DNA of 46,891 nt from Deltaproteobacteria bacterium (GCA_021778975.1 JAJYBO010000001.1:1-46891); one strand, 5' to 3'; shown: positions 600 through 46,891, numbered from the stretch's first letter. Numbers and translations: made by a program. The notes: generated by a model not told the origin, from the sequence alone.

Positions 600-1700
600 A
601 TGCCCACAGATACAGATCGAAGGTCCATACACGCAACAGATATGACCGACATTTCCGGCAAAATCAGCAACGCCGCTGTCTCCATACCGCCTGATGCCCG
701 TTGTCTGGATACCATACAACTTACAAGACTGGAACAGTCTTTTCGGGAATGGGCCGGGGCGTCACCGCGCCGGGATGTTCAGGATTCCAGAAAACGGATA
801 CTGATGATTTTTCTTCTGATACGCTATACCGGCGCTCGACTGAACGAGGTGCTGCATCTGAATCCATTAGAAAATATGGACTTCAATAACCATATCGTGT
901 TTTTTCGAAAAATACCGTCCAGTGATGATTTGTCTGCACGGGAAGTCCGAATTCCGGAAAATATTTCATCTGAAATTAAGATAATGATGGAAAAAAATTT
1001 CACCGCCCGGAAATCTGCACTTGCCGTTGATGCCGCACACATTCGCCGTAAATTTTATGAACGATCCGCTGCCTGTGGATTTCCCAAAGAATATGGTGCG
1101 CCGGACGCTATCCGAAAATCGAGAGCCATCGAACTGATGCAGCACAACATGCCGCTGCCGCTGGTGCAGAGAATTTTGGGACATTCCACACCAAACCTGG
1201 CGGCCTCTTATGTTGAATTCTCCGAAGAAGACATGAGGCGACTGGCCATTCACTTCACCGAAAAGGAAAGTCACCGTAAAACCAGCGCCCGCAATATGTT
1301 TTTCGGAAAAATCAGGAATATTCGGCAGGGGGATATTCAATCTATTGTCGAGATTCTGACGATCGGCGAATTCATCATCACCACGGTCATCACCAATGAC
1401 AGCCGGGAGCGACTGGGATTGAAACCGGGTGTTTTGATTACCGCGGAAGTGAAGGCGCCCTGGGTCATACTGCATCGCGGAGACACTGAACCCTTATGCA
1501 CGGCTGAAAACAGACTTCGCGGCTCCGTAGAACGGATACGCAGAGGGGAAACGACAACGGAATATGTAGTGCGAATTTTTGACGGCGCATCGCTGTGTGC
1601 GGTTACGAGCCGGGATGACGATCACCGGCTCGATATCAATGAAAACGATGTGGTATGGGCGATATTCAACAGCTTTGCCATTGTGCTGCATGTAGAATGA
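600..1700 (+). CDS. Tyrosine-recombinase (phage-integrase fold) catalytic-like domain fused to two C-terminal Mop/TOBE oxyanion-binding domains
   Basis: 366-aa ORF with GGAG 12 nt upstream. The N-half has LLIRYTGARLNEV (Arg-I box) and LPLVQRILGHSTPNLAASYVEF (His-II/Tyr box), but no recognisable core-binding domain. The H-x-x-R box is altered to IRKSRA. The C-half has two ~65-aa repeats, FFGKIRNIRQGDIQSIVEI..ITTVITNDS..LGLKPGVLITAEVKAPWVIL and NRLRGSVERIRRGETTTEYVV..VWAIFNSFAIVL, with the ModE-type Mop pattern. Confidence 0.7.
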   Translation: MPTDTDRRSIHATDMTDISGKISNAAVSIPPDARCLDTIQLTRLEQSFREWAGASPRRDVQDSRKRILMIFLLIRYTGARLNEVLHLNPLENMDFNNHIVFFRKIPSSDDLSAREVRIPENISSEIKIMMEKNFTARKSALAVDAAHIRRKFYERSAACGFPKEYGAPDAIRKSRAIELMQHNMPLPLVQRILGHSTPNLAASYVEFSEEDMRRLAIHFTEKESHRKTSARNMFFGKIRNIRQGDIQSIVEILTIGEFIITTVITNDSRERLGLKPGVLITAEVKAPWVILHRGDTEPLCTAENRLRGSVERIRRGETTTEYVVRIFDGASLCAVTSRDDDHRLDINENDVVWAIFNSFAIVLHVE

Positions 1701-11941: not shown

Positions 11942-11960
11942 TAGCGGCAAGGAGATTCTT

Positions 11961-13022
11961 ATGAACGACGTTTATCAAAATCTTGCACAGCATTTGGACA
12001 ATTTGCCAGCCGGCTTTCCGGCGACGGAAACCGGCGTTGAAATCCGGATCCTCAAGCGGCTCTTCACCCCCGAAGAAGCTCGTATCGCCGCCGGTCTGGT
12101 CATGATGCCGGAACCGGCGTCCGCGATTGCGGCAAGGCTTCAGATGGAGGAAGCGGTGCTGACACCAGTACTGGAAGACATGTCCCGAAAGGGGCTGATT
12201 TACCGCTCCAGCCGGCATGGTCAGACTTATTACATGGCCGCCCAGTTTGTGGTGGGCATTTGGGAGTACCATGTCAAAAGTCTCGATCTGGAACTGATCA
12301 AGGACTTCAACGAATATGCCCCCTATCTGATGCAGCAGGCCTGGACGGAAACCAAAACCAAGCAGCTCCGGGTGATTCCCATTTCCAAGAGTATTTCTGC
12401 GGAAATGCTCACCATGCCTTACGACGAAGCTGAAAAAATCATCCGGCAGCAAACCAAGATCGTGGTGGCTCCGTGCATCTGCCGAACCGAACACAAGATG
12501 GCCGGCAAAGGCTGTGACAAACCTATCGAGGTCTGCCTGTCCTTTGGCAGCGGCGCCTATTTTTATGAAGAAAACGGGCTTGGCCGCTCCATCAATCAGG
12601 AGGAAGCGCTGGATATTCTGGCCAAAGGCATGGAAGCCGGTCTGGTGCTGCAACCCGGCAATTCTCAAAAACCCACCAACATCTGCATGTGCTGCGGGTG
12701 CTGCTGCCAGATTCTGAAGAACCTGAACCAGCTCGATGAACCCGCCAGAGCGGTCAACACCAGCTACTTCGCCGAAGTCGCCGCCGATAACTGCACGGGG
12801 TGCGGCATGTGTGCGGAGCGCTGCCAGATGCAGGCCATCGTCGTCGAGGACGTCGCCCATGTCAAAAAAGAACGCTGCATCGGCTGCGGACTTTGCGTGG
12901 CCGCTTGCAACTTCGATGCGATTCATCTGCTTGAAAAAAAGCCGGAAGATCGCTGGATACCGCCCGCCAACACCGTTGAAACCTACATCAACATCGCACG
13001 GGAACGAGGCAAGCTCGGATGA
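11961..13022 (+). CDS. Iron-sulfur protein: N-terminal winged-helix-like region, Cys-rich core, C-terminal 2x[4Fe-4S] ferredoxin domain
   Basis: Track ORF 11934..13022. The start was moved to ATG 11961, which has AAGGAG 6 nt upstream. Cys motifs: CICRTEHKMAGKGC...C, NICMCCGCCC, CTGCGMCAERC and CIGCGLCVAAC. Confidence 0.7.
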   Translation: MNDVYQNLAQHLDNLPAGFPATETGVEIRILKRLFTPEEARIAAGLVMMPEPASAIAARLQMEEAVLTPVLEDMSRKGLIYRSSRHGQTYYMAAQFVVGIWEYHVKSLDLELIKDFNEYAPYLMQQAWTETKTKQLRVIPISKSISAEMLTMPYDEAEKIIRQQTKIVVAPCICRTEHKMAGKGCDKPIEVCLSFGSGAYFYEENGLGRSINQEEALDILAKGMEAGLVLQPGNSQKPTNICMCCGCCCQILKNLNQLDEPARAVNTSYFAEVAADNCTGCGMCAERCQMQAIVVEDVAHVKKERCIGCGLCVAACNFDAIHLLEKKPEDRWIPPANTVETYINIARERGKLG

Positions 13023-23169: not shown

Positions 23170-23365
23170 CAGCATATAAGCCCCCACCACTGTGCCGTTT
23201 TGTAAGGCCTTTGAGCCAAACGTGGAAATTTGGGACGTGTGTGATTTTTTCAGGCTTTTCTGTACGAGCAGAACTTGCACACCAAAATCAGGTAAGCCCC
23301 TGTTCAATTAATGTTGGGACAAAGGACATCTTCCAGTAACGAACACGGCAGGGGCTTATATACCG
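23170..23365 (-). ncRNA. ssrS: Candidate 6S RNA (boundaries approximate)
   Basis: A ~190-nt non-coding stretch lies downstream of zapA on the same strand; E. coli has the zapA-ssrS arrangement. The ends pair: UAUAAGCCCC (23360..23351) with GGGGCUUAUA (23184..23175), which is 10 bp. After a 7-nt bulge, UGCCGU pairs with ACGGCA, and CCUUUG pairs with CAAAGG further in. No covariance-model search was possible. Confidence 0.4.
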
Positions 23366-23389
23366 GAATAAGCAACCACCAAATCAATA

Positions 23390-23542
23390 TTGACGGCTTC
23401 GTAAAAAGTCCGGATGCTGCGTTGCGCTGCATCCTTCGTCGTTGCGGCGTACCATAAGTACGCCTCACTCCTCAGGATTTGCGCGCCTTGCCTGCGGCCT
23501 TTTTACAAAGTCGTCCGAAATTCGACTTTTTACGAGAACATC
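23390..23542 (+). repeat. Intergenic structured repeat, copy 4, full length
   Basis: ttgacggcttcgtaaaaagtccggatgctgcgttgcgctgcatccttcgtcgttgcggcgtaccataagtacgcctcactcc...tttttacaaagtcgtccgaaattcgactttttacgagaacatc. It lies between the zapA stop and the 6S candidate. Confidence 0.9.
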
Positions 23543-23586
23543 AATATTTACGACTTCACAAAAATATCACAAAATTTATAAGTGGA

Positions 23587-24484: not shown

Positions 24485-25243
24485 TCAAGATTTTGTTTGG
24501 TGAAGCATCTGAATCTCCGCGGCTTTCAAGTCTTCCAGAGAATTGACACCCATCGTTTCAAGCGGATCATCTGCAATCAGCGCTCCGATTTTCCTGCCCT
24601 GCCGATATCCAATACCTACAATATCCGTCAAATACATCTCGTTCTGTGCATTTCGGGTATTCAAAGACCCAAGTGACTCATTTAAGAATTGTCTGTTTAC
24701 ACAATATATACCGGCATTGACAACATTAATTTTTCGCTGTTCTGAAGTTGCATCCGCTTCTTCGACAATTTCTGTTACACATTGATCCATGTTCATCAGC
24801 AATCTGCCATAACCTGTCGGATCCGGCATCTCTACAGCCAGAATCGTAATATCGTTTTGTTTATTGTGGTGATATTGAAAAAGCATATCAAGCGTTGATG
24901 CCTGAATCAATGGTGTATCTCCACACAAAATAATGACATTTTCAACAGTCTCATTCAAAAATGGCATGGCGCAGGAAACAGCATGACCGGTTCCCAATTG
25001 CTGGGTCTGATGCACATAATGAACATCGAAATACTGGTTCATGGACGTCTGCACCTGCTCTGATTGAAAACCGACAATGACATGGATATTGCGATCCGTC
25101 AGCTTTCTGGCGGCATCAATAACGTAATACAGCATTGGTTTTCCGGCAATTTGATGCAATACTTTCGCCATTTGCGATTTCATACGCTTCCCTAAACCAG
25201 CCGCCAAAATTATTACAGCCAGTGTCTGAGGCATATTCTTCAT
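24485..25243 (-). CDS. glmU: UDP-N-acetylglucosamine pyrophosphorylase domain protein (GlmU N-terminal domain only; no LbH acetyltransferase domain)
   Basis: 252 aa. AVIILAAGLGKRMKSQMAKVLHQIAGKPML, QLGTGHAV, LCGDTPLI, DPTGYGRL, NAGIYC and EMYLTDIV are collinear with E. coli GlmU residues ~1-250. The ORF stops in the linker helix. The atpC-glmU synteny matches E. coli. Confidence 0.75.
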   Translation of the reverse strand: MKNMPQTLAVIILAAGLGKRMKSQMAKVLHQIAGKPMLYYVIDAARKLTDRNIHVIVGFQSEQVQTSMNQYFDVHYVHQTQQLGTGHAVSCAMPFLNETVENVIILCGDTPLIQASTLDMLFQYHHNKQNDITILAVEMPDPTGYGRLLMNMDQCVTEIVEEADATSEQRKINVVNAGIYCVNRQFLNESLGSLNTRNAQNEMYLTDIVGIGYRQGRKIGALIADDPLETMGVNSLEDLKAAEIQMLHQTKS

Positions 25244-25274
25244 ATTTCACCACGTTATAAAGACCGTCGTAAAT

Positions 25275-25429
25275 GATGATGACTTCGTAAAAAGTCGAAT
25301 TTCAGACGGCTTTTTAAAAAAGGCCGCGGGCAAGGCGCGCAAATCCGCAAGGCGTGAGGCGTACTTATGGTGCGCCGCAACGATGAATGCAGCGCAACGC
25401 AGCATCCGGACTTTTTACGAAGCCGTCAA
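25275..25429 (-). repeat. Intergenic structured repeat, copy 5, full length, inverted orientation
   Basis: gatgacttcgtaaaaagtcgaatttcagacgg...ggcgtgaggcgtacttatggtgcgccgcaacgatgaatgcagcgcaacgcagcatccggactttttacgaagccgtcaa is the reverse complement of the copy 1-4 consensus. It lies between the atpC terminator and glmU. Confidence 0.9.
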
Positions 25430-25443
25430 TGATGCAACAAAAC

Positions 25444-34300: not shown

Positions 34301-36172
34301 ATGATACTCGTACTTCAGAAAAACATCACCAAAGATCAAAAAAGTCATATCCGCAACGTTCTCATGGACAAGGGCTGCGTCGTGCGCGAAATGACAGACG
34401 CCGACCAGAGCATTATCGGCGCTTTGGGAAGAAACAAACTCGATCCGAACTTTCTAAAAAGCCTTCCCGGCGTTGAAAATGTCGTCCCCATCACCACCCC
34501 GTTCAAACTCGTGAGCCGGCAGTGGCATCCGGAAGACACGCTGGTTCCCATTGGAAATGTACTGGTGGGCGGAAAGCGCATTGTAATGATCGCAGGCCCC
34601 TGCGCTGTGGAAAGCCGGGAACAGGCCCTGACCATCGCCAGAGAAGTCAAACGCTACGGCGCACTTGTGTTCAGAGGCGGCGCTTATAAACCCAGAACAT
34701 CCCCCTATTCATTTCAAGGACTTGAAGAAGAAGGCCTCAAAATTTTGGCCGAAGTTCGGGAACAAACCGGGCTCCCGGTGGTTACGGAAATCACCTCGGT
34801 CGCCCAGGCCGATGTCATGATGAAATATGTGGACGCCGTCCAGGTCGGTGCGCGCAACATGCAGAACTTCGAGCTTCTCAAATGCGTCGGGCGCATGGGC
34901 AAACCGGTTGTACTCAAACGGGGGCTGGCATCCACTATCGAAGAATGGCTGATGTCCGCGGAATACATTATGTCCGAGGGAAACGACCGGATCATTCTCT
35001 GTGAACGCGGCATTCGCACCTTCGAGCCATACACCCGGAACACCCTCGACTTATCAGCCATTCCGGTGCTGAAAAAACTCACCCACCTGCCGGTATTGAT
35101 TGATCCCAGTCACGCCACCGGTATTCGCGAAAAAGTCAGTCCCATGGCCCGCGCAGCGATTGCCGCCGGCGCCGACGCCCTGATGATCGAGGTTCATCAC
35201 GATCCGGATCACGCGCTTTCGGATGGCCCCCAAAGTCTGTATCCCAAGCAATTTGGTCAACTCACCCGTGATATTTATGTCATCGCGCCGGTTGTCGGCA
35301 AGCAGCTCGACTTCGATTATCAGGAAAAAGCGTCCTCCTTCGTACAGGACGCCAGCGGGGAATCATCCCAGAAGATCGCCTTTTTGGGAGAACTGGGTAC
35401 ATTCAGCCACAATGCCTGCCTCCAATACTTCGGAGAAAATGCGGATGTCATCCCCAAACCAGGTTTCCGCGCCATTTTTGACGCCGTCGCCTCCAGAGAA
35501 GCCGCTTACGCCATCATTCCTCTGGAAAACTCGCTTTCCGGCAGCATTCATGAAAACTATGATTTGCTTTTGGAATATGACCTTGAAATTGTAGGTGAAA
35601 TCACACTGCGTATCATCCATTATCTGCTCGGACGTCCCGGAACCCGGCTGGAAGACATTCGCCGGATTCTTTCCATCGCTCCGGTGGTGCAGCAGTGCCG
35701 GCAATTTCTCGACCGCTATCCGGACTGGGAAATTGTCACTGTCAATGCCTCGACCAGCGCTGTCCGCGATGTCGTCCAGAGCGAAGGATGCACAAACGCG
35801 GCTATCGGCAGCAAAGAAGCCGCGAAGATGTTCGGCCTCGACATCATTGAAGAGGGCATCGAGACGAACCCCATGAATTTTACCCGGTTCGCCATCATCG
35901 CGGCGGAACCTGCCGGCAAAAAAGACGTTCAGAAATCATCCCTGGTCTATTCGGTCGGCAACCAGCCAGGATCGCTTTACGAAACACTGAAGATTTTTCA
36001 GGAAAATCATATCAATTTGGTGAAACTGGAATCACGGCCCATTTTGGGCAAACCCTGGCAATATATGTTTTATGCGGATTTGGAAGCCGATGTACGCTCT
36101 GCAACCTTTGCCCCGATTCTCGAAGAGGTAAAAAGCAAAACAGATTTCTTTAAAATTCTTGGAACATATTGA
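34301..36172 (+). CDS. Fusion: type I-beta DAHP synthase (with N-terminal ferredoxin-like regulatory domain) + prephenate dehydratase + ACT domain
   Basis: A single 623-aa ORF. Residues ~1-70 (MILVLQKNITKDQKSHIRNVLMDKGCVVREM) form an FL-type domain as in Thermotoga DAHPS. Residues ~80-340 carry MIAGPCAVES, FRGGAYKPRTSPYSFQGL, LKRG and IDPSHATG (the DAHPS/KDO8PS family). From ~350 on, KIAFLGELGTFSH and IPLENSLSGSI mark the PDT domain. The C-terminal ACT domain has SLVYSVGNQPGSLYETLKIF..INLVKLESRP. Confidence 0.85.
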   Translation: MILVLQKNITKDQKSHIRNVLMDKGCVVREMTDADQSIIGALGRNKLDPNFLKSLPGVENVVPITTPFKLVSRQWHPEDTLVPIGNVLVGGKRIVMIAGPCAVESREQALTIAREVKRYGALVFRGGAYKPRTSPYSFQGLEEEGLKILAEVREQTGLPVVTEITSVAQADVMMKYVDAVQVGARNMQNFELLKCVGRMGKPVVLKRGLASTIEEWLMSAEYIMSEGNDRIILCERGIRTFEPYTRNTLDLSAIPVLKKLTHLPVLIDPSHATGIREKVSPMARAAIAAGADALMIEVHHDPDHALSDGPQSLYPKQFGQLTRDIYVIAPVVGKQLDFDYQEKASSFVQDASGESSQKIAFLGELGTFSHNACLQYFGENADVIPKPGFRAIFDAVASREAAYAIIPLENSLSGSIHENYDLLLEYDLEIVGEITLRIIHYLLGRPGTRLEDIRRILSIAPVVQQCRQFLDRYPDWEIVTVNASTSAVRDVVQSEGCTNAAIGSKEAAKMFGLDIIEEGIETNPMNFTRFAIIAAEPAGKKDVQKSSLVYSVGNQPGSLYETLKIFQENHINLVKLESRPILGKPWQYMFYADLEADVRSATFAPILEEVKSKTDFFKILGTY

Positions 36173-40033: not shown

Positions 40034-40041
40034 AACAATGC

Positions 40042-40107
40042 CCGCATGGATGTTCTGAATATCGTCCGCTACTGACATTCGGAACATCCATGCGGTACTT
40101 TTCGTTT
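40042..40107 (+). terminator. Terminator hairpin after tatA
   Basis: CCGCATGGATGTTC (40042..40055) pairs perfectly with GAACATCCATGCGG (40082..40095), followed by TACTTTTCGTTTC. The loop is large (26 nt). Confidence 0.55.
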
Positions 40108-40177
40108 CAGGCCCGCCGCTCAAATGTTCATCTATGCGCTAAATCTCATTCATGTGCTGTATGCGATAAAAAAAATC

Positions 40178-40206
40178 TTGCCTTTTGCATCTTTGTTATT
40201 TATACA
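40178..40206 (+). promoter_or_regulatory. Candidate promoter of the mvhD-glt-like cluster
   Basis: TTGCCT (40178..40183), a 17-nt spacer, then TATACA (40201..40206). This would give a ~300-nt T-rich leader before the mvhD-like gene. Confidence 0.3.
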
Positions 40207-40508
40207 CCCCATAAAGAAGTCAATGCCGACTTCCGCTGTAACGGGACCAGCACCTCAAAGACGAGATGCTTCCGGGTTTTAAAATGAGCCTTATCGCAGA
40301 TATGTCAAAACTGCTGTGGGGGTGTTCATTTCGCTGATTCACCCGCCACAAGTCTTCAGCCAAACCCACCAACCTGTTCAGGCTTTCCGGACCAACGCCG
40401 CTCCTTTTTTCTGTCTGCTTTTCCTTTTTTAACGTTCTGTTTTTTGATGGCCGTCACTCCACGATGGCTTCAAAACGAAAAGTTTGACGTCACTGACAAG
40501 GAATGCCG

Positions 40509-40913
40509 ATGAAACCACAGATTGTGTTGTATTGCTGTACCAATTCCACGACGTTTTCCGGAGAAGATATCGAAAAACGGATTCCCGGAAATCTGGCCGA
40601 CTTCAAAATTTCCCGCCTTCCCTGCTCCGGCCGCACCGACACGCTGTACATGGTTCGAGCGATCGAAAACGGAGCCGATATGGTCATGGTAATTGCCTGT
40701 CCGGATGGTTGCTGCCAGTTTCTGGAAGGAAACCGCCGCGCCCGGATGCGAGTGCGATATGCCAACCGGCTTCTCGCTGAGGCCGGGATCGGAGATGACC
40801 GCATTCACATGGTCAATGTGGATCCCGCCGATGACCAGATTCTGACGACCGCGCTGCAAAAAATCGTTGTCAGAGCGCTGGATATGGGGCCGTGGTTAAC
40901 CACATCCTCTTGA
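40509..40913 (+). CDS. MvhD/FlpD-type iron-sulfur protein (methyl-viologen-reducing hydrogenase delta-subunit family)
   Basis: Track ORF 40503..40913; the second ATG (40509) has AAGGA 6 nt upstream. IVLYCCTNS...ISRLPCSGRTD..YMVRAIENGADMVMVIACPDGCCQFLEGNRRA..R matches the MvhD pattern (F.C.WC...v.C.Grvd....A...GADGV.v.GC..g.C.y..GN). Confidence 0.75.
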   Translation: MKPQIVLYCCTNSTTFSGEDIEKRIPGNLADFKISRLPCSGRTDTLYMVRAIENGADMVMVIACPDGCCQFLEGNRRARMRVRYANRLLAEAGIGDDRIHMVNVDPADDQILTTALQKIVVRALDMGPWLTTSS

Positions 40914-40968
40914 AATATTGTGTTTTTTAAGGTTTCCAACGAAATAACGAGAAGGTGGAAATACGCAG

Positions 40969-42360
40969 ATGCCCAAGAAATACCATATCAAACCAACCCC
41001 TGCCGCCCCGCGTTTCATTCCCGTGGGCCGGTCGGGAATCATAGACTGGGAAGAAGATTGCCTGAAATGCACCACCTGCGTCAAAAAACGCTGTCTGTAC
41101 GACGTTTATAAAAATCGCGCGTATGACGCCAGAACTCTGGTAGATTCCATAGACTACCAGTGCAAGAACTGTTTCAGTTGTATTCAAAACTGTCCTCGCG
41201 GCGTTTTGTCCAAAACCATCAATCCCGAATTTCTCCGAATGGGAGACGCCTACTGGAAGCCCGATATCATTCACAACACCTGGTTTCAGGCAGAAACCGG
41301 CAGAATCCCGGTTTCCGGAGCGGGTTATCGAGGGCCGTTCAGCGGCCCCGGTTTCGACGCCATGTGGACGGATATGTCAGAGATTGTCCGTCCCACACGA
41401 GATGGCATTCATGGACGCGAATACATCAGCACCGCCATTGATATCGGCAGAAAGCAGCACCATATAGAATTTGACGCCAGCGGCGCCGCGCGGATAGAAA
41501 TGCCACCGCTTGTGGAAATACCGCTGCCGGTGATATTCAATCCACTGCCATTCGGCAATATCGGTATATCTGTCACGCTGTCCATGGCCGCGGCAGCGCG
41601 GCAAATTGGTGGATTGATGTACGTCACCCCAGAGACATACGCCCCCTTTCTGAAACCATTCATGTCCCAGCTCGTTCCCCTGATACCGGCGGACATGGAT
41701 GTGAACGCTCCCATGCTTCAGGGCGTCCGGATGGTGGAACTGCATTACGCTCCCGATATTCTGGCACAAGTACAGCGATTGAAAAGTCACTGTTCGGAGC
41801 GTGTGGTCTCGATCAGAGTGCCTCTGAATCCAGACGCAAAAACCATTACGGCCGCGCTGACGCGAGGCGGCGTGGAAGTCGTTCACCTGTTTGCCGATTA
41901 TCGCGGCAATGAATTTGTGGACGGCGATTCCCCGCGGTTTGTCAAAGATGCATTAAGAGATGTGCATACGCATCTGGTAAACGAATGTATCCGTGACGAG
42001 GTGACACTGATCGTCAGCGGCGGTATCGCCCTGGCGGAACACTTGCCCAAAGCCATTATTTGCGGCGCGGACGGCGCCGCCATTGACCTGCCGCTTCTCA
42101 TCGCGCTTGAATGCCGTGTGTGCAAACGCTGTGTGACCGGAAAGTCCTGCCCTGTCGAACTTCAAAATCTGGATCCGGCGTATGGCGCCCAGCGCATCGT
42201 AAATCTGATGTGCAGTTGGTGGAGTCAATTGATCGAGTTGATGGGCGCAATGGGCATCCGCGATGTCCGGCGAGTGCGCGGTGAAGCAGGCAGGGCCATG
42301 TTTTTTGAAGATCTGGAAAGAGATACATTTGGCGCTATTTTTGGCGGACAATCAAAATAA
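40969..42360 (+). CDS. Ferredoxin-domain + glutamate-synthase FMN-domain-like protein, divergent paralog lacking the FMN/substrate motifs
   Basis: 463 aa, collinear with the next ORF. It has N-terminal Cys clusters (CLKCTTCVKKRC and CKNCFSCIQNCP) and retains SGGI and LECRVCKRCVTGKSCP. VELHYAPD replaces FKYAQGAKPGLGGH, and ADYRGNEF replaces DGSYGGTGAAP. Confidence 0.7.
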   Translation: MPKKYHIKPTPAAPRFIPVGRSGIIDWEEDCLKCTTCVKKRCLYDVYKNRAYDARTLVDSIDYQCKNCFSCIQNCPRGVLSKTINPEFLRMGDAYWKPDIIHNTWFQAETGRIPVSGAGYRGPFSGPGFDAMWTDMSEIVRPTRDGIHGREYISTAIDIGRKQHHIEFDASGAARIEMPPLVEIPLPVIFNPLPFGNIGISVTLSMAAAARQIGGLMYVTPETYAPFLKPFMSQLVPLIPADMDVNAPMLQGVRMVELHYAPDILAQVQRLKSHCSERVVSIRVPLNPDAKTITAALTRGGVEVVHLFADYRGNEFVDGDSPRFVKDALRDVHTHLVNECIRDEVTLIVSGGIALAEHLPKAIICGADGAAIDLPLLIALECRVCKRCVTGKSCPVELQNLDPAYGAQRIVNLMCSWWSQLIELMGAMGIRDVRRVRGEAGRAMFFEDLERDTFGAIFGGQSK

Positions 42361-42374
42361 GGAGTATTCATACC

Positions 42375-43841
42375 GTGACGGCGGAAATCAAAAAAACAGC
42401 TTCACGATTTCGTCACACCATCGGTAAATACCGGGTGGTGCGCGGCAGGCAATGTAAAAGCTGTGCGGGCTGCGTGGTGACCTGTCCGCATGGCGTTCAT
42501 TTCAAGGCCGGCGCCCGCATGGGAACCCCGCGGGACTATCTTTGCGTAGGGCCGGATATTTGCAAACAACACGGAACATATTGCGTCGAAAAATGCCCCA
42601 ACGCAGCGCTGTCGGTTGCCATCAACCCGCAGATCAAAGCACTTGGAGATTTCCGCTGGACAGCGGAACTTCTCATGAGTACCTGGTATCAGGCGGAAAC
42701 CGGAGAACTTCCCACTGTGGATATGGAATATCGGGTGGGAAATTCCGGCGGCGGCTTCGATAAACTCCGCCTGAAATATCCTGAAACACTACCGTCAGAG
42801 ATTGCGGCAGACGATATTGACACCAGTATCGAACTGAACAAGCGCGAGGATAACGCCCATCGCATCACCATTTCACTGCCGCTGTATCAGGGCGGAATGT
42901 CCTTTGGTTCCGTCAGTGACAACACCATGATCTCCCGCGCAAAAGCCGCGATGCTGTGGAATACGTTCGGATGCACAGGAGAAGGCGGATATCCCGAATT
43001 TCTCTATCCGTTCGACCGGCACATGATCACCCAGGTAGCCACCGGTTTGTTCGGGGTGAAGGAAGAAACGGTTCAACGGGTGCGGATTGTCGAGTTCAAA
43101 TATGCCCAGGGAGCAAAACCCGGTCTGGGCGGGCATCTTCTGGGCGATAAAGTAACGGAACGGGTCGCCAAAATGAGAGAAGCCGTCAGGGGCAGCGCGC
43201 TGTTTTCACCTTTTCCCTTTCACAGCGTCTATTCGGTGGAAGACCACAAGAAACATGTGGACTGGATCAAAGCCATGAATCCGAAGGCGCTGGTGTCCGT
43301 CAAGGTTTCCACGCCGGCCGATGTGGACATGGTGGCCATCGGCAGTTACTATGCCGGCGCACACATCGTACATCTGGACGGCAGCTACGGCGGCACTGGC
43401 GCGGCGCCGGATATCGCCAAAAAGAATATCGCCATGCCCATCGAATACGCCATTCCCAAAGTACATCGTTTTTTGGTGGAAGAAGGTGTCCGGGACAGAG
43501 TAACGCTGATCGCGAGCGGCGGCATTCGAACGGCGCATGATATCCTCAAGGCCATTGCCCTGGGCGCGGACGGGGTTGTTGAAGGCACCGCCGGCATGGT
43601 GGCGCTGGAGTGTACCCGATGCAGCTCCTGTGAAAGCGGTCGCGGCTGTCCGCGGGGCATTGCGACCACAGATCCGGAACTGGCAGAAATGATGACCGTG
43701 GAATGGGGCGCCCAGCGTGTCTATAATCTGTACGCATCCTGGCGTAAGCAAATTGTCGCCGAACTTCGGAAACTGGGGATGCGCAGCATCCGCGAACTGG
43801 TGGGCAGAACCGACTGTCTGCGTCATCTGGACTACAACTGA
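42375..43841 (+). CDS. Glutamate synthase FMN-binding (GltB domain 2) protein with N-terminal 2x[4Fe-4S] ferredoxin domain (archaeal-type)
   Basis: 488 aa, GTG start with GGAG 10 nt upstream. Cys motifs: CKSCAGCVVTCP and CVGPDICKQHGTYCVEKCP. Catalytic-domain motifs: QGGMSFGS, KYAQGAKPGLGGHLLG, LDGSYGGTGAAP, ASGGIRT, LECTRCSSCESGRGCPRGIATTD. Confidence 0.8.
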   Translation: MTAEIKKTASRFRHTIGKYRVVRGRQCKSCAGCVVTCPHGVHFKAGARMGTPRDYLCVGPDICKQHGTYCVEKCPNAALSVAINPQIKALGDFRWTAELLMSTWYQAETGELPTVDMEYRVGNSGGGFDKLRLKYPETLPSEIAADDIDTSIELNKREDNAHRITISLPLYQGGMSFGSVSDNTMISRAKAAMLWNTFGCTGEGGYPEFLYPFDRHMITQVATGLFGVKEETVQRVRIVEFKYAQGAKPGLGGHLLGDKVTERVAKMREAVRGSALFSPFPFHSVYSVEDHKKHVDWIKAMNPKALVSVKVSTPADVDMVAIGSYYAGAHIVHLDGSYGGTGAAPDIAKKNIAMPIEYAIPKVHRFLVEEGVRDRVTLIASGGIRTAHDILKAIALGADGVVEGTAGMVALECTRCSSCESGRGCPRGIATTDPELAEMMTVEWGAQRVYNLYASWRKQIVAELRKLGMRSIRELVGRTDCLRHLDYN

Positions 43842-43937
43842 AGGGGACGATAGACAACGGGCAGCGGATAATGGATATATTTCGTGTTCCCCCGCCGCCT
43901 TCGATCGTCCCCCGTTTTTATGGGAGATACCGTTAGC

Positions 43938-46607
43938 ATGAGGACATATAGCAAAGAATGCTCTGCAGCAGACAGCATTCTGGCTTCCCGAAGACGGATG
44001 CTGCACGAATTCCCTCCGCCCTCCGGCGTCAAAGTCGAAGAAGAAGGTGGATGCGGTGTAACCGGCTTTGCCTGTTCCATCCCCGTGGGCGGCAAACACA
44101 TTTTCGAGCCGTCGAAACAGATGCACAATCGCGGCAACGGCAAGGGGGGCGGTATTGCCGCGGTGGGGTTCGAACCCGAAGCGCTGGGAGTATCCCGGGA
44201 AGTTCTGGATACCCATTATATGCTTCAAATCGCGTTGATTGACCCACAGGATAAATCTGTCGTAAGGGCGGTGGAAGAAGAATTCATCCTGCCCTATCTG
44301 GATATCGCCACATCGGAAATGATCCCCACCATTGACGATTATCGCGATATTCCAGGTCTGGACGTGCAGCCGCCAGATGTCATGCGCTACTTTGTCCGTG
44401 TAAAACCGGGCGTACTGCATGATTTTATAGCCAGCAACCATTTCGAGAACCTGAAACCGGACAGGGCCGAAGATGAATTCATGTGCCAGAACGCTTTCAA
44501 GCTCAACACCCGGTTTTATTCCACGCTTGGCGACAAAAAAGCTTTTGTAATGTCACATGGCAAGAACATGATGATTCTCAAAATTGTGGGATATGCGGAG
44601 TTGGTGGCCAGTTATTACAGGTTGGAAGACTTCAAATCCCATATCTGGATTGCACATCAGCGCTATCCCACCAAGGGCCGTGTATGGCATCCGGGCGGTG
44701 CGCATCCGTTCAGTGGTATGCATGAAGCCCTGGTTCATAACGGTGATTTCGCCAATTATCATTCGGTTTGTGAATATCTCAAACAGAGAAATTTATATCC
44801 TCTGTTTCATACGGATACCGAAGCCTCTGTTCTGATGCTGGATCTTCTGAACCGTGTTTATGGGTATCCCCTGGAGTATATCATCGAAGCACTGGCGCCG
44901 ACCACGGAAGCCGATTTTGACAAACTGCCCGCGGACAAGCAGAAAGTTTACCGGGCTATCCAGGCGGCGCATATTCACGGATCACCGGACGGCCCCTGGT
45001 TCTTCATCATCGCGCGGAACGACCCGTATCAAAACCAATTTCAACTGATCGGCATCACCGATACCGCCATGCTGCGGCCGCAGGTATTCGCGCTTCAGGA
45101 AGGCGATGTGCAAATCGGGCTGGTCTGTTCTGAAAAGCAGGCCATTGACGCCACCCTTGACAGCCTGGCCAAAGAAGATCCCCGGTTCTGCACGGTATGC
45201 GACAAATACTGGAACGCCCGGGGTGGCAGTCATACCGACGGCGGCGCCTTCGTTTTTACGGTCAAATCTGAAAATGGCGCAATGCGCCTGACCTGCACCG
45301 ACAAATTCGGCAATATACGGACCGCCGCCGCCAAAGACAAACTCCTATGCGACACTACGACGGCGGTGACACGCCCGCCGGAAGAGTCTTACATCCGCCG
45401 CGAATTGAATCGCCTGTTTCAGACTTCGGCGGTGGATGTGTTTCAGTATGTGGCCACAGCCATGCTGACATGGGATTACGATACCCTCCGATGGGGGTGC
45501 AGCGAAATAACGACAATAGCGGCCCGCGGGGATGCTGAAAAAGCGCTGGCCATCGAAGCGCTGACCCTGCTGAACGACCGGATTTTCGATGTCGGCGATA
45601 AAAAACGGGCATGGGTATTGTGGATGATCCGCGGCGCCCTGAAGGATATTTTCGCTGCATGTCCGGCCTTCGATCAACCTGCCGGGGGGCAATATCGTTA
45701 CATTGATTTCAAAACGCGAAAAATGTTGCGGGCGCCTCTCAACGGCGAGAAAATTTTGGTGGTTTATGCGCGAGAATTCGAGCCTGAAGGTGATGACTGC
45801 GATGCCCGACTTCTCTGCGACGCCCATGCCAAAGGCTGGAAGCGCTTTATCGTCTATGGATATCGCGGCCAGCGTTTCACCGGCAATGGCTTTGGGCCGG
45901 ACACCGGAGATGTGCGCATTGATGTTTACGGCAGTTCCGGAGATTATCTGGCGTCCGGTATTGACGGCATGGAAATCCATGTTCACGGCAACGCCCAGGA
46001 TCAACTGGGGCAGATCATGAAAGACGGGAAACTGGTGGTATTCGGTGATGTGGGGCAGACGTTCATGTATGGCGCCAAGGGGGGCGCCGTCTATATCATG
46101 GGTAATGCCGCCGGTCGTCCTCTGATCAATGCGGTAGGACGACCGCGCGTGGTCATCAACGGCACCGCGCTGGACTATCTGGCAGAGTCCTTCATGGCCG
46201 GAGATCCTCACGCCGGCGGCGGTTTCGTGGTGCTGAACGGCATGACGTTCACCGATAACGGAAAATTGATGGAACTGTCCACCCCTTATCCAGGCTCCAA
46301 CCTTTTCTCACTGGCCTCCGGGGGGGCTATTTTTGCGCGAGACCCTCACCAGAAGCTGACCGAAGATCAGCTCAATGGCGGAGAGTTCGCGGCGTTCACC
46401 GATGCGGACTGGAATCTGATTCTGCCATATCTGAAAGAAAATGAACGACTTTTCGGCATTTCCATCGAAAGAGACCTGTTGACGGTCAATGGAGTTCCAT
46501 GTACGCCTCAGGAAGTTTATCGAAAGGTGAAGGCCGTTCAGTTGACGGTTCTTACGGGCGTGCAAAAAAAGTCCGATCCCGCGGCCAAAACGGCGGCTGA
46601 CGTATGA
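43938..46607 (+). CDS. Fusion: class-II (Ntn) glutamine amidotransferase domain + unassigned middle region + GltB C-terminal GXGXG beta-helix domain
   Basis: The track ORF starts at GTG 43884; ATG 43938 has GGGAGA 10 nt upstream. GATase motifs: GGCGVTGFA, HNRGNGKGGGIA, HQRYPTKG...GAHPF..MHEALVHNGDFANY. C-terminal region: YGYRGQRF.GNG, VYGSSGDYLASGIDGMEIHVHGNAQDQLGQIMKDGKLVVFGDVGQTFMYGAKGGAVYIMGNAAGRP. The start codon is uncertain. Confidence 0.75.
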   Translation: MRTYSKECSAADSILASRRRMLHEFPPPSGVKVEEEGGCGVTGFACSIPVGGKHIFEPSKQMHNRGNGKGGGIAAVGFEPEALGVSREVLDTHYMLQIALIDPQDKSVVRAVEEEFILPYLDIATSEMIPTIDDYRDIPGLDVQPPDVMRYFVRVKPGVLHDFIASNHFENLKPDRAEDEFMCQNAFKLNTRFYSTLGDKKAFVMSHGKNMMILKIVGYAELVASYYRLEDFKSHIWIAHQRYPTKGRVWHPGGAHPFSGMHEALVHNGDFANYHSVCEYLKQRNLYPLFHTDTEASVLMLDLLNRVYGYPLEYIIEALAPTTEADFDKLPADKQKVYRAIQAAHIHGSPDGPWFFIIARNDPYQNQFQLIGITDTAMLRPQVFALQEGDVQIGLVCSEKQAIDATLDSLAKEDPRFCTVCDKYWNARGGSHTDGGAFVFTVKSENGAMRLTCTDKFGNIRTAAAKDKLLCDTTTAVTRPPEESYIRRELNRLFQTSAVDVFQYVATAMLTWDYDTLRWGCSEITTIAARGDAEKALAIEALTLLNDRIFDVGDKKRAWVLWMIRGALKDIFAACPAFDQPAGGQYRYIDFKTRKMLRAPLNGEKILVVYAREFEPEGDDCDARLLCDAHAKGWKRFIVYGYRGQRFTGNGFGPDTGDVRIDVYGSSGDYLASGIDGMEIHVHGNAQDQLGQIMKDGKLVVFGDVGQTFMYGAKGGAVYIMGNAAGRPLINAVGRPRVVINGTALDYLAESFMAGDPHAGGGFVVLNGMTFTDNGKLMELSTPYPGSNLFSLASGGAIFARDPHQKLTEDQLNGGEFAAFTDADWNLILPYLKENERLFGISIERDLLTVNGVPCTPQEVYRKVKAVQLTVLTGVQKKSDPAAKTAADV

Positions 46608-46678
46608 AATCCAAATCCGGTCAGAGGGTAGTTTTTCAAATTGTGATATCCGGAGTTCAATAACAACGAGGTGGATAC

Positions 46679-46891
46679 ATGATCGTAGCGGAACGAAAAC
46701 CATTTGAAGAAATCAGAGCCATGCTGGACGGTCGCCGGAAAATCTTTGTTCTGGGATGCGATACCTGCGTGAGCGTCTGTATGGCGGGCGGCAAGAAAGA
46801 GGTCGGTCTGCTGGCTTCTCAGTTGCGGATGCGCTTTAAAAAAGACGGGCAAAACGTCCAGGTAGATGAAGATACGGTTGAACGTCAGTGC
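46679..46891 (+). CDS. Cys-containing protein, 5' part only (ORF open at right edge); possibly MetV-like (MTHFR C-terminal-domain family)
   Basis: Absent from the ORF track because it has no stop in the window. ATG 46679 is preceded by GAGGTGG. Translation: MIVAERKPFEEIRAMLDGRRKIFVLGCDTCVSVCMAGGKKEVGLLASQLRMRFKKDGQNVQVDEDTVERQC. The resemblance to the small MetV subunit of acetogen MTHFR complexes is from memory only. Confidence 0.3.
   Translation, partial: MIVAERKPFEEIRAMLDGRRKIFVLGCDTCVSVCMAGGKKEVGLLASQLRMRFKKDGQNVQVDEDTVERQC

What the first reader, a model, noticed from the sequence alone, without database searches (positions are those of the whole stretch)
40509..46891. MvhD-like protein linked to a rearranged, split glutamate-synthase-like module: possible undescribed redox complex
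Five co-directional genes have short gaps of 55, 14, 96 and 71 nt.
1. An MvhD/FlpD-type protein. In known systems this family is the electron-transfer adaptor of HdrA, Mvh and Flx complexes.
2. A ferredoxin plus GltS-FMN-like protein that lacks the FMN/substrate motifs.
3. A canonical ferredoxin plus GltS-FMN protein.
4. A ~890-aa fusion of a class-II amidotransferase domain, ~250-300 aa of unassigned sequence and the GXGXG beta-helix domain.
5. A Cys-rich gene cut by the window edge, which resembles the MetV subunits found next to Hdr/MvhD in Wood-Ljungdahl clusters.
Archaeal-type glutamate synthases are known as three separate domain proteins whose physiological reductant is poorly defined. 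Here the domain-1/domain-3 fusion, the extra inactive paralog and the MvhD partner together suggest one of two things. The cluster may be a glutamate synthase fed by an Hdr-type (possibly electron-bifurcating) module, or it may be a GltS-derived complex with another function.
Basis: partly seen in the sequence, partly recalled or inferred. Interest (0 to 1): 0.75.

Follow-up and report, generated by a model that had tools for sequence, protein, structure and literature searches.

The report
Glutamate synthase wired to MvhD-MetVF
A six-gene operon encodes an unusual split iron-sulfur glutamate synthase that, in dozens of anaerobic species, sits next to an MvhD electron adaptor and a methylene-tetrahydrofolate reductase, which points to an undescribed way of feeding electrons into nitrogen assimilation.

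Summary
Five co-directional genes lie at 40503-46891: MvhD, a catalytically dead GltS-FMN paralogue (g2), an intact ferredoxin-GltS-FMN subunit (g3), a glutaminase/beta-helix fusion (g4) and a truncated MetV. A 99.9%-identical contig shows that MetV is complete there and is followed 4 nt later by MetF, so the operon has six genes.

The g2-g3-g4 triad is invariant in 55 informative loci from at least six phyla. MvhD is adjacent in 46 of them, and MetV and/or MetF is in the locus in 38, in four different gene orders. Some relatives add hdrC-hdrB-hdrL. Seven of the nine loci without MvhD carry a GlcD-like FAD/Fe-S gene in its place, and that module is fused to g2 in some proteins. g2-g3 fusions also exist.

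Recurrent neighbours are glnA, amtB, PII, glnD/E, carAB, purF and hisHF. The glutaminase Cys1 and the 2-oxoglutarate/FMN motifs are intact.

My reading: this is a genuine GOGAT whose dead paralogue g2 is the Fe-S adaptor for exchangeable electron-input modules, here MvhD-MetVF. The direction of electron flow and the existence of a physical complex are inferred, not shown. I found no paper or solved structure describing it. I class it as a new variant of a known kind.

The parts
40034..40502 (+). 469-nt intergenic region upstream of mvhD (after tatA); presumed promoter region of the operon
   Evidence: ORF map and sequence. No sigma-54 consensus lies here. There is no Rfam hit. The sigma-70 scan gave no more matches than shuffled sequence.
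40503..40913 (+). g1: MvhD/FlpD-family [2Fe-2S] adaptor protein (134-136 aa)
   Evidence: Pfam FlpD E 6e-22. Best PDB sequence matches are MvhD subunits of Mvh/Fdh-Hdr complexes (9sfi_K, 7bkb_F, 5odc_D). Four Cys (C12, C41, C66, C71) are invariant in 30 triad-linked MvhDs.
40969..42360 (+). g2: catalytically dead paralogue of the GltS synthase subunit. It has an N-terminal 2x[4Fe-4S] ferredoxin-like domain (Cys 31/34/37/42 and 65/68/71/75), a TIM barrel without the FMN/2-oxoglutarate loop, and a C-terminal CxxCxxCx5CP cluster motif (Cys 382/385/388/394). Proposed Fe-S adaptor for the electron-input module.
   Evidence: deletion of the AQGAKPG loop; all 12 Cys invariant in 33 homologues. The AF2 TIM barrel is confident for aa 150-370. 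Fusions of a GlcD-like FAD/Fer4_8 module to g2, and of g2 to g3, exist in other organisms.
42375..43841 (+). g3: GltS synthase subunit. It has an N-terminal 2x[4Fe-4S] ferredoxin-like domain (aa 27-74), an FMN/2-oxoglutarate site (AQGAKPG aa 244-250, GGTGAAP aa 339-345) and a cluster motif CxxCxxCx5CP (aa 413-426).
   Evidence: Pfam Glu_synthase E 2e-92. Aligns to the FMN domain of A. brasilense GltS alpha (1ea0/2vdc residues 857-1170, E 2e-51) with the AQGAKPGxGG, GGTGA and Arg positions conserved.
43938..46607 (+). g4: fusion of a class-II (Ntn) glutaminase domain (catalytic Cys39 after a 38-aa propeptide; aa 39-455), a helical linker (about 483-573) and a GXGXG beta-helix (aa 586-820)
   Evidence: Pfam. 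C39 in GGCGVTGF, HQRxPT, HNGD and TDTE are invariant in 44 homologues. AF2 model pLDDT 81, pTM 0.82. The best Foldseek hits are GltS alpha subunits 7mfm_G and 6s6s_A, with both ends aligned.
46679..46891 (+). g5: metV (first 71 codons; cut by the window edge). The full gene is 221 aa and is followed 4 nt later by metF (294 aa) on the extended contig.
   Evidence: Translation. L001/L002 are 99.9% identical to the window and carry PF12225 (E 5e-36) and then PF02219 MTHFR (E 9e-37). The MetF equivalents of E. coli Glu28, Asp120 and Gln183 are conserved (E. coli sequence recalled from memory).

Best explanation
The operon mvhD-g2-g3-g4-metV-metF encodes a genuine glutamine:2-oxoglutarate amidotransferase (GOGAT) of the split, iron-sulfur 'archaeal' type. 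The enzyme has been extended by two extra electron-transfer proteins and coupled to a second flavoenzyme.

Proposed roles of the parts:
- g4 hydrolyses glutamine at its Ntn-cysteine and supplies the structural beta-helix.
- g3 binds FMN and 2-oxoglutarate and reduces 2-iminoglutarate to glutamate.
- g2 is a duplicate of g3 that has lost the flavin/substrate loop but kept all three Fe-S sites. It pairs with g3 and is the adaptor on which the electron-input module docks.
- In this lineage the input module is MvhD ([2Fe-2S]) plus MetV (Fe-S) plus MetF (flavin).

Proposed electron path: MetV -> MvhD -> g2 clusters -> g3 clusters -> FMN. GOGAT is the most electropositive couple in the system, at about -65 mV once glutamine hydrolysis is counted. 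The estimate comes from my own knowledge: E0' of 2-oxoglutarate + NH4+/glutamate is about -140 mV, plus about 14 kJ/mol from glutamine hydrolysis.

The electrons come either from methyl-THF oxidised at MetF (E0' -200 mV, about 130 mV downhill) or from reduced ferredoxin entering at MetV. In the second case MetF is a second acceptor on the same wire. I favour methyl-THF slightly, because MetF and g3 are the only two substrate-level redox sites the operon encodes.

Shown: gene content, motif integrity, conserved linkage, gene fusions. Inferred: the physical MvhD/MetVF-GOGAT complex and the direction of electron flow.
For: 1. GOGAT identity.
- Glutaminase Cys1 and the HQRxPT/HNGD/TDTE motifs are invariant in 44 homologues.
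- g3 keeps AQGAKPGxGG, GGTGAAP and the Arg aligned to the 2-oxoglutarate site of 1ea0.
- The g4 model matches GltS alpha subunits.
- Recurrent neighbours in all arrangement types are glnA, carA/carB, purF-like, amtB, PII, hisH/hisF, a NifA-like regulator and a GAF-ANTAR regulator.
- ANME-1 has amtB-glnK-glnA-[GlcD/Fer4_8]-g2-g3-g4-carBA.
- In the window's own clade the layout is nadE-PII-glnD-glnA-glnE, then the same six genes. Another relative has PIIx3-amtB upstream.

2. g2 as adaptor.
- The triad g2-g3-g4 is present in every locus with enough sequence.
- g2-g3 fusions exist: P0351 was confirmed by Pfam, and four more proteins of similar length and match pattern are inferred to be fusions.
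- GlcD-like FAD + Fer4_8 + g2 fusions exist (P0370, P0376).
- g2 lacks the catalytic loop but keeps 12 invariant Cys.

3. MvhD/MetVF coupling.
- MvhD is adjacent in 46 of 55 loci, and MetV and/or MetF is in the locus in 38 of 55.
- The linkage appears in four gene orders across Thermodesulfobacteriota, Chloroflexota, Poribacteria, Planctomycetota, Myxococcota and others.
- Median gaps are 5-65 nt, with overlapping mvhD/g2 and g2/g3 in L087.
- MvhD sits where the GlcD-like module sits in the MvhD-less loci.
- MvhD keeps four invariant Cys, and MetF keeps its catalytic residues.

4. MvhD-MetV is an established pairing in type IV MTHFR (PMC8760232, PMC9430772).
Against: - No biochemical, structural or expression data exist for any member.
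- No MvhD-g2 or MetV-g2 fusion was seen among the top 150 representatives. Physical contact of MvhD with g2 therefore rests on gene order alone.
- Eight loci have MvhD plus the triad and no MetVF in the ±10 kb examined. Two more (L066, L084) have it only in a downstream hdrL-mvhD-metVF cluster. Three loci have MetV without MetF. MetF is therefore not obligatory.
- Some relatives place hdrL/hdrBC next to the triad, which fits a different donor.
- Some genomes carry another GltS set nearby (L076 canonical gltB, L058 split set, L086 extra Glu_synthase gene). The triad need not be the only GOGAT.
- Catabolic methyl-THF flux would far exceed the demand for glutamate, so methyl-THF-driven GOGAT can only be an anabolic side-reaction.
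- Both g2 and g3 carry their own ferredoxin-like domains, which could accept electrons directly from ferredoxin without MvhD.
- The N-terminal 150 residues of the g2 model are low-confidence.
Confidence: 0.5

Rival explanations
1. Hdr-plugged acceptor pair. GOGAT (through its own MvhD) and MetVF are both high-potential electron acceptors of an HdrA/HdrL-type flavin-based electron-bifurcating core. That core oxidises NAD(P)H and also reduces ferredoxin. In this organism the Hdr core would be encoded elsewhere. The operon would then encode two exergonic 'sinks' rather than a donor-acceptor pair.
For: - hdrC-hdrB-hdrL (1480-1494 aa, with a GltD-like Fer4_20/Pyr_redox_2 part plus an HdrA part) lies directly downstream of g4 in L087/L088 and in five type-(e) loci.
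- L084 and L066 have mvhD-g2-g3-g4-hdrL-mvhD-metV-metF, followed in L084 by hdrC-hdrB.
- In all solved complexes MvhD plugs into HdrA.
- Type IV MTHFR still lacks its second acceptor (PMC8760232).
- NADH-driven GOGAT is about 250 mV downhill (own estimate), which is enough to drive ferredoxin reduction.
Against: - There is no hdrA, hdrB or hdrC in the 46.9-kb window or on the 38.9-kb contig.
- Only about 12 of 55 loci show Hdr genes within 10 kb.
- The 28 type (a)/(b) loci, with six genes each, show no recurrent Hdr genes nearby.
- The analogous GlcD-like module is fused to g2 and looks like a simple donor.
Confidence: 0.25
2. No electronic coupling. g2-g3-g4 is an ordinary ferredoxin-dependent archaeal-type glutamate synthase, and mvhD-metVF is a separate anabolic methylene-THF reductase (for methionine). 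The genes are neighbours only because both are biosynthetic and co-regulated.
For: - Type II MetVF enzymes work alone with reduced ferredoxin in vitro (PMC8760232, PMC8515935).
- g2 and g3 each have a ferredoxin-like domain that could take electrons from free ferredoxin.
- The triad occurs without MetVF in the locus (17 of 55 loci) and without MvhD (9 of 55).
Against: - In this clade mvhD is on the far side of the triad from metVF, so the GltS genes sit between the supposed MTHFR subunits.
- The linkage survives at least four rearrangements across phyla, with gaps of tens of nucleotides.
- MvhD stays with the triad when MetVF is absent (the 8 loci with mvhD and the triad but no metVF, and L084).
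- No other methionine or folate genes recur in the neighbourhood.
Confidence: 0.15
3. Not a glutamate synthase. The GltS-derived triad has been recruited for another job. One possibility is a scaffold and Fe-S module that replaces HdrABC in a catabolic Wood-Ljungdahl MTHFR. Another is an N-methylglutamate-synthase-like or other amination enzyme.
For: - GltS-like three-part enzymes with other functions exist: N-methylglutamate synthase MgsABC and the FwdC beta-helix (own knowledge; weak FwdC hits).
- Some genomes have additional GltS genes.
- g4 falls well below NCBIfam cut-offs for any named family.
Against: - The catalytic Cys1, the glutamine-binding motifs and the 2-oxoglutarate/FMN residues are invariant.
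- The neighbourhood is dominated by glnA, amtB, PII, glnD/E, carAB, purF and hisHF. It contains no fhs/folD/acs or mgd/gmaS genes.
- The triad occurs in nitrogen operons with no MetVF at all (ANME-1).
Confidence: 0.07

Closest known systems
Bacterial NADPH-GltS (GltB/GltD) and ferredoxin-GltS (structures 1EA0, 2VDC, 6S6S, 1OFD, 7MFM)
   Same: Same chemistry and same catalytic modules: an Ntn glutaminase with Cys1, an FMN/2-oxoglutarate synthase TIM barrel with an Fe-S cluster, and a GXGXG beta-helix.
   Different: - The modules are split over two proteins in a different order: domains 1 and 3 are fused in g4, and domain 2 is separate in g3.
- No recognisable central domain is present.
- The cluster motif has four Cys (CxxCxxCx5CP) instead of the three-Cys [3Fe-4S] motif.
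- g3 carries an N-terminal 2x[4Fe-4S] domain.
- There is no GltD. Instead there is a dead paralogue (g2) plus MvhD.
Archaeal-type split glutamate synthase (separate domain-1, domain-2 and domain-3 ORFs; never characterised biochemically, see PMC8097209)
   Same: A ferredoxin-domain-fused FMN subunit and separately encoded glutaminase and beta-helix functions. The physiological reductant is unknown.
   Different: - Here domains 1 and 3 are fused.
- An obligatory inactive paralogue is always present.
- MvhD/MetVF, Hdr or GlcD-like modules are attached.
- L058 carries a classical split set next to the triad, so the two are distinct systems.
Type IV methylene-THF reductase MetVF-HdrCBA-MvhD (Moorella thermoacetica, Sporomusa ovata; PMC8760232, PMC9430772)
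   Same: The same MvhD + MetV + MetF trio, encoded together. The redox partner is unresolved. In relatives (L084, L077-type) the triad lies inside or beside a complete hdr-mvhD-metVF cluster.
   Different: In this operon HdrCBA is absent, and the GltS triad occupies the place of the large flavo-Fe-S partner. The context is nitrogen assimilation, not Wood-Ljungdahl genes.
Mvh/Fdh-HdrABC complexes of methanogens (PDB 5ODC, 7BKB, 9SFI)
   Same: MvhD is a small [2Fe-2S] adaptor that bridges an electron-donating module to a flavoprotein carrying ferredoxin-like domains.
   Different: The partner here is not HdrA but, by inference, the ferredoxin-like domain of g2/g3. Nothing in the window indicates bifurcation.
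F420-dependent glutamate synthases (FGltS; FrhB-linked GltS clusters in methanogens and ANME, PMC9012536)
   Same: Another case in which a split GltS core has acquired a lineage-specific electron-input subunit.
   Different: The input there is FrhB/F420H2. Here it is MvhD-MetVF, or a GlcD-like FAD/Fe-S protein in ANME-1 and Smithella-type loci.

Membership tests
Glutamate synthase (GOGAT) | Class-II (Ntn) glutaminase domain with an N-terminal catalytic Cys and glutamine-binding motifs | tested here: met
   C39 in GGCGVTGF follows a 38-aa propeptide. HQRxPT, HNGD and TDTE are invariant in 44 homologues. The fold matches GltS, GlmS and PurF glutaminase domains.
Glutamate synthase (GOGAT) | FMN-binding synthase domain with the 2-oxoglutarate-binding Lys/Arg and the GGTGA phosphate-binding motif | tested here: met
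   g3 aligns to 1ea0 residues 857-1170 (E 2e-51) with AQGAKPGxGG, GGTGAAP and the aligned Arg conserved. g2 fails this test.
Glutamate synthase (GOGAT) | Fe-S cluster within the synthase domain ([3Fe-4S], Cx5Cx4C in bacterial and plant enzymes) | tested here: inconclusive
   A Cys motif lies at the homologous position, but it has four Cys (CxxCxxCx5CP) in both g3 and g2. This suggests a [4Fe-4S] cluster. The cluster type cannot be determined from sequence.
Glutamate synthase (GOGAT) | C-terminal GXGXG beta-helix domain | tested here: met
   Pfam GXGXG E 2e-13. A beta-helix is modelled for aa 586-820.
Glutamate synthase (GOGAT) | Central domain lining the ammonia tunnel | tested here: not met
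   No protein has a Glu_syn_central hit outside the FMN barrel itself. g4 has only a five-helix linker. g2 may substitute, but that is an inference.
Glutamate synthase (GOGAT) | Glutamine + 2-oxoglutarate + 2e- -> 2 glutamate activity | not testable with these tools
   Needs an enzyme assay. Only the nitrogen-assimilation gene context supports it.
MvhD/FlpD | A protein of about 130-140 aa with conserved Cys ligands for one [2Fe-2S] cluster | tested here: met
   Pfam E 6e-22. PDB MvhD matches at E 6e-15. Four invariant Cys.
MvhD/FlpD | Partnership with an HdrA-type flavoprotein | tested here: not met
   No HdrA is in the window or on the extended contig. It is present next to the triad only in some relatives.
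Type IV MTHFR (MetVF-HdrCBA-MvhD) | metV, metF and mvhD encoded together | tested here: met
Type IV MTHFR (MetVF-HdrCBA-MvhD) | hdrC, hdrB and hdrA in the same cluster | tested here: not met
   Absent from this operon and its flanks.
Flavin-based electron-bifurcating enzymes | A recognised bifurcating flavoprotein (HdrA, EtfAB, NfnB, or HydB/NuoF-type) in the complex | tested here: not met
   None is among the six genes or within the 46.9-kb window.
N-methylglutamate synthase (MgsABC) | A GltS-like three-subunit enzyme clustered with gmaS and mgdABCD for methylamine use (own knowledge) | tested here: not met
   No mgd-like or sarcosine-oxidase-like genes appear among the recurrent neighbours. 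The neighbours are glnA, amtB, PII, carAB and purF.

The most novel reading that the evidence does not exclude
MetVF-MvhD-g2-g3-g4 is one soluble supercomplex: a previously unknown class of glutamate synthase that takes its electrons from methyl-tetrahydrofolate. It would link the C1 pool directly to nitrogen assimilation.

In the relatives that add HdrL/HdrBC, the enzyme would be an electron-bifurcating GOGAT. Glutamate synthesis would then be the 'missing' high-potential acceptor of type IV MetVF-Hdr-MvhD complexes and would drive ferredoxin reduction.

More generally, the dead paralogue g2 would be a universal docking subunit. It would let anaerobes plug different cheap mid-potential donors (methyl-THF, or a 2-hydroxy-acid through the GlcD-like module) into GOGAT.
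Probability: 0.3. Interest if true: 0.85.

Novelty: new variant of a known kind. Interest (0 to 1): 0.72.

Why it matters
Two questions have been open for years. One is the physiological reductant of 'archaeal-type' glutamate synthases. The other is the true redox partner of MetVF-type methylene-THF reductases (the second acceptor of type IV and the in vivo donor of type II; PMC8760232).

This operon family occurs in at least 597 species genomes, including sulfate reducers, syntrophs, Dehalococcoidia and ANME-1. It places the two enzymes side by side, with an MvhD adaptor and a dedicated inactive paralogue.

If the coupling is physical, it defines a new modular design for GOGAT in energy-limited anaerobes, with mid-potential donors in place of NADPH or ferredoxin. 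It also gives a concrete, assayable candidate partner for MetVF/MvhD and, with HdrL, possibly a new electron-bifurcating reaction.

There is a practical consequence for annotation. g2 is currently labelled 'ferredoxin', 'hypothetical' or 'glutamate synthase-related', and g1 is labelled a hydrogenase subunit.

Tried and rejected
- Promoter/terminator scan of the operon: counts equalled those of shuffled sequence, so it says nothing about co-transcription.
- Sigma-54 consensus search: no site upstream of mvhD, and counts were below chance.
- Rfam on the whole window: only 6S RNA, and no riboswitch upstream of the operon.
- Mirror-tree correlation of pairwise identities among the six proteins: r = 0.75-0.99. 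Only 12 loci were usable, and shared species phylogeny alone would give the same result, so it does not discriminate.
- Homologue search with MvhD: the word index returned only 110 close relatives, all stand-alone, and no fusions.
- AF2 model of g2: the N-terminal 150 aa have pLDDT below 50. Foldseek gave only generic FMN/IMPDH TIM barrels, so the central-domain analogy could not be tested.
- PDB sequence searches for g2, g4 and MetV: no close solved homologue.
- Ten literature searches and ten papers read: none describes a GltS linked to MvhD, MetVF or Hdr.

Ideas considered and dropped:
- An ATP-driven GS/GOGAT/GDH loop to push methyl-THF electrons up to NAD(P)H. It costs too much ATP for acetate-oxidising sulfate reducers.
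- Bifurcation from methyl-THF to GOGAT plus ferredoxin. The mean acceptor potential is about -260 mV, which is below -200 mV, so the reaction is endergonic under standard conditions.
- Glutamate oxidation driving methylene-THF reduction. It is uphill, and it is contradicted by the conserved glutaminase.
- N-methylglutamate synthase. The gene context is wrong.


Full report
OBSERVATION

- g1 at 40503-40913
- g2 at 40969-42360
- g3 at 42375-43841
- g4 at 43938-46607
- an open frame from 46679 to the window edge

The gaps are 55, 14, 96 and 71 nt. Pfam confirms each assignment:
- g1 is FlpD/MvhD (E 6e-22).
- g2 has a ferredoxin-like domain plus only the C-terminal half of the Glu_synthase profile (E 9e-18).
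- g3 has a ferredoxin-like domain plus the full profile (E 2e-92).
- g4 has a weak class-II amidotransferase hit plus GXGXG (E 2e-13).

No NCBIfam model reaches its cut-off for any of them.

g2 and g3 are paralogues (28% identity, E 4e-48). g2 has a 44-residue deletion exactly over the AQGAKPGLGG...FPFHSVYSV loop, and it has ADYRGNEF where g3 has GSYGGTGAAP. In contrast, g3 aligns to the FMN domain of A. brasilense GltS with these motifs intact.

THE WINDOW CUTS THE OPERON

Two public contigs are 99.86% and 99.94% identical to the window over 15.9 and 9.8 kb. They show that the fifth gene is a 221-aa MetV (PF12225, E 5e-36). It is followed 4 nt later by a 294-aa MetF (PF02219, E 9e-37). An enoyl-CoA hydratase gene follows after 230 nt.

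MetF keeps the residues equivalent to E. coli Glu28, Asp120 and Gln183 (the E. coli sequence was recalled from memory). The unit is therefore mvhD-g2-g3-g4-metV-metF. No hdrA, nuoF, gltD or Wood-Ljungdahl gene lies in the remaining 40 kb of the window or on the contig.

PROTEIN ANATOMY

g4:
- Its homologues number more than 7,600 clusters at 90% identity and are 60-83% identical across phyla.
- In 44 of them, Cys39 (in GGCGVTGF, after a propeptide), HQRxPT, HNGD and TDTE are invariant. These are the hallmarks of an active Ntn glutaminase.
- The AlphaFold model (pLDDT 81, pTM 0.82) shows a glutaminase domain (aa 39-455), a five-helix linker (aa 483-573) and a beta-helix (aa 586-820).
- Its best structural matches are whole GltS alpha subunits, aligned at both ends.

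g2:
- Its homologues are equally numerous and are named 'ferredoxin', 'hypothetical' or 'glutamate synthase-related'.
- All keep 12 Cys in three cluster motifs and a strongly conserved segment at aa 105-162.

MvhD next to the triad keeps four invariant Cys.

There is no close solved structure for g2, g4 or MetV.

NEIGHBOURHOOD CONSERVATION

A scan of one genome per species found at least 597 genomes encoding a g4 relative. I analysed the best 80 loci plus others fetched by protein look-up, using tblastn of the six proteins.

g2-g3-g4 occur together and in that order wherever there is enough sequence. Among the 55 loci with at least 5.2 kb upstream, the arrangements are:

| Type | Arrangement | Loci |
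|---|---|---|
| (a) | mvhD-g2-g3-g4-metV-metF (this clade) | 8 |
| (b) | mvhD-metV-metF-g2-g3-g4 (Desulfobacterales, Dehalococcoidia, Poribacteria, Syntrophorhabdaceae and others) | 20 |
| (b') | mvhD-metV-g2-g3-g4 | 3 |
| (e) | mvhD-metF-g2-g3-g4-...-hdrB-hdrL-mvhD-metV | 5 |
| (c) | mvhD-g2-g3-g4; two of these have hdrL-mvhD-metVF just downstream (hdrCB also annotated in L084) | 10 |
| (d) | g2-g3-g4 without mvhD | 9 |

MvhD is therefore adjacent in 46 of 55 loci, and MetV and/or MetF lies in the locus in 38 of 55. Extrapolated intergenic gaps have medians of 5-65 nt. In L087, mvhD/g2 and g2/g3 overlap. Linkage that survives at least four rearrangements in several phyla is the classical signature of functional coupling.

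WHAT THE TRIAD DOES

I clustered all flanking ORFs and annotated the recurrent families. The neighbours are:
- carA (16 loci) and carB (14 loci)
- glnA (12 loci)
- a purF-like amidotransferase (7 loci)
- a GAF-ANTAR regulator (6 loci)
- amtB (5 loci)
- PII, hisH/hisF and a NifA-like activator

These occur in every arrangement type. Specific examples:
- ANME-1 has amtB-glnK-glnA-[GlcD-like]-g2-g3-g4-carB-carA.
- L087 has glnA-carA-carB-purF-mvhD-g2-g3-g4-hdrC-hdrB-hdrL.
- In the window's own clade, L092 has nadE-PII-glnD-glnA-glnE immediately upstream of the same six genes. Another relative has three PII genes and amtB upstream.

No fhs, folD or acs genes recur. Together with the intact catalytic residues, this makes a genuine glutamate synthase much the most likely function.

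WHAT g2 DOES

Seven of the nine MvhD-less loci have a gene of about 614 aa directly upstream of g2. It encodes FAD_binding_4 + FAD-oxidase_C + Fer4_8, which is GlcD/GlcF-like.

An exhaustive HMMER search with g2 found 266 representative clusters at E <= 1e-30. It revealed two kinds of fusion:
- Single polypeptides in which this GlcD-like/Fer4_8 module is fused to g2 (P0370 at 1218 aa, P0376 at 1176 aa; P0375 has Fer4_8 plus g2).
- A confirmed g2-g3 fusion (P0351, two Glu_synthase stretches). Four more proteins of 971-1041 aa show the same match pattern. P0206 also looks like one.

These fusions show that g2 pairs with g3 and that a flavoprotein/Fe-S module docks on g2. I conclude that g2 is a dead paralogue retained as the Fe-S adaptor between an exchangeable electron-input module and the synthase subunit. 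MvhD, with MetV/MetF or Hdr, occupies the same genomic position as the GlcD-like module.

MECHANISM

Step by step:
- Glutamine is hydrolysed at g4 Cys39. This is inferred from motifs.
- Ammonia passes to g3, where FMN reduces 2-iminoglutarate. This is inferred from homology to GltS.
- Electrons reach the FMN through the g3 and g2 clusters. The motifs are shown. The path is inferred.
- g2 receives the electrons from MvhD. This is inferred from gene order only.
- MvhD is fed by MetV, a pairing known from type IV MTHFR (PMC8760232, PMC9430772).

E0' of methylene-/methyl-THF is -200 mV (PMC8760232). From my own knowledge, 2-oxoglutarate + NH4+/glutamate is about -140 mV, and glutamine hydrolysis adds about 14 kJ/mol. 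The GOGAT couple is therefore about -65 mV and is the thermodynamic sink of the wire.

The electrons could come from two sources:
- methyl-THF oxidised at MetF, which gives a self-contained operon with two substrate-level redox sites;
- reduced ferredoxin entering at MetV, the in vitro donor of type II MetVF. MetF would then be a parallel acceptor.

I favour the first slightly, but I cannot separate them computationally.

The main rival is that both enzymes are high-potential acceptors of a trans-encoded HdrA/HdrL bifurcating core. The relatives with hdrL/hdrBC beside the triad suggest this. The absence of any Hdr gene here, and the lack of recurrent Hdr genes in the 28 (a)/(b) loci, weakens it. 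Mere co-regulation and a non-GOGAT function are less likely for the reasons given above.

COMPARISON WITH KNOWN SYSTEMS AND NOVELTY

The chemistry and catalytic domains are those of GltS. The subunit plan differs in four ways:
- domains 1 and 3 are fused;
- there is an obligatory inactive paralogue;
- there is no central domain and no GltD;
- the cluster motif has four Cys.

Archaeal split GltS enzymes have never been characterised (PMC8097209). The recognised MTHFR types I-IV do not include a GltS partner (PMC8760232).

Ten full-text searches, and reading of the most relevant genome papers (D. autotrophicum, ANME, AOM partner bacteria, deep-sea Chloroflexi, HdrA surveys), found no description of this linkage. 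The library is limited to open-access papers and preprints, so a description elsewhere cannot be excluded.

I class the finding as a new variant of a known kind. It is well supported as an observation, and its mechanism is open but directly testable.

LIMITS
- The 80 loci are those most similar to the query out of at least 597, so the percentages describe that subset.
- ORF calling for the neighbourhood clustering was crude.
- No multimer prediction was possible.
- Whole-genome questions could not be addressed. These include whether this is the sole metF or the sole GOGAT, and whether Hdr is present elsewhere in the genome.

Noticed in passing
L046:5105-6946, L056:5196-7040, L059, L062, L067, L070, L076 (directly upstream of g2); fusion proteins P0370, P0376: In loci without mvhD, a GlcD-like protein of about 614 aa (FAD_binding_4 + FAD-oxidase_C + Fer4_8) precedes the triad. 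In some organisms it is fused to g2. Its substrate is unknown. There are weak matches to D-2-hydroxyglutarate dehydrogenase YdiJ, whose product would be the GOGAT substrate 2-oxoglutarate.
   Followed up: partly
window 23177-23357 (-): 6S RNA (SsrS): Rfam RF00013, 83.6 bits, full-length match.
   Followed up: no
window 23389-23564 and 25266-25430 (inverted); L001:19291-19466: A repeat of about 170 nt forms an inverted pair that flanks about 1.7-1.9 kb, including a nucleotidyltransferase gene (24485-25243, -). The repeat starts right next to the 6S RNA gene. A third copy (94% identical) lies downstream of the metF operon, beyond the window. It is possibly a MITE-like or REP-like element.
   Followed up: partly
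window 34301-36172 (+): A 623-aa fusion of a DAHP synthase (FXD + DAHP_synth_1) with prephenate dehydratase and a faint ACT domain. It sits next to a divergently oriented 3-dehydroquinate synthase gene (on the opposite strand) and is an unusual aromatic-amino-acid fusion.
   Followed up: no
window 10244-13022 (+): An acyl-CoA-dehydrogenase-like protein (565 aa, only the middle and C-terminal ACAD domains detected). The next gene overlaps it and encodes a 362-aa protein with a C-terminal 2x[4Fe-4S] domain. This may be an uncharacterised redox pair.
   Followed up: no
window 600-1700 (+): A 366-aa protein that combines a phage-integrase catalytic domain with a C-terminal TOBE (molybdate/sulfate-binding type) domain. 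This is an odd combination.
   Followed up: no
L086:14464-16056 (-); L076:15100-19647 (+); L058:6079-10611 (+): Some genomes carry a second glutamate-synthase system right beside the triad. L086 has a stand-alone 530-aa Glu_synthase gene, L076 a canonical 1515-aa gltB, and L058 a classical split archaeal set. This implies isoenzymes with different electron donors.
   Followed up: partly
L069, L071, L081 (mvhD-metV-g2-g3-g4): Three loci keep MetV but have no MetF in ±10 kb. MetV can therefore accompany MvhD and the triad without its usual catalytic partner.
   Followed up: partly
L077:5639-5959 and equivalents in L047, L055, L064, L073: These loci have two MvhD genes. One is a shortened copy of about 107 aa upstream of a divergent MetF (27-36% identical to the window's). 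The other is a full-length copy between hdrL and metV. The GltS triad and hdrC/hdrB lie between them.
   Followed up: partly
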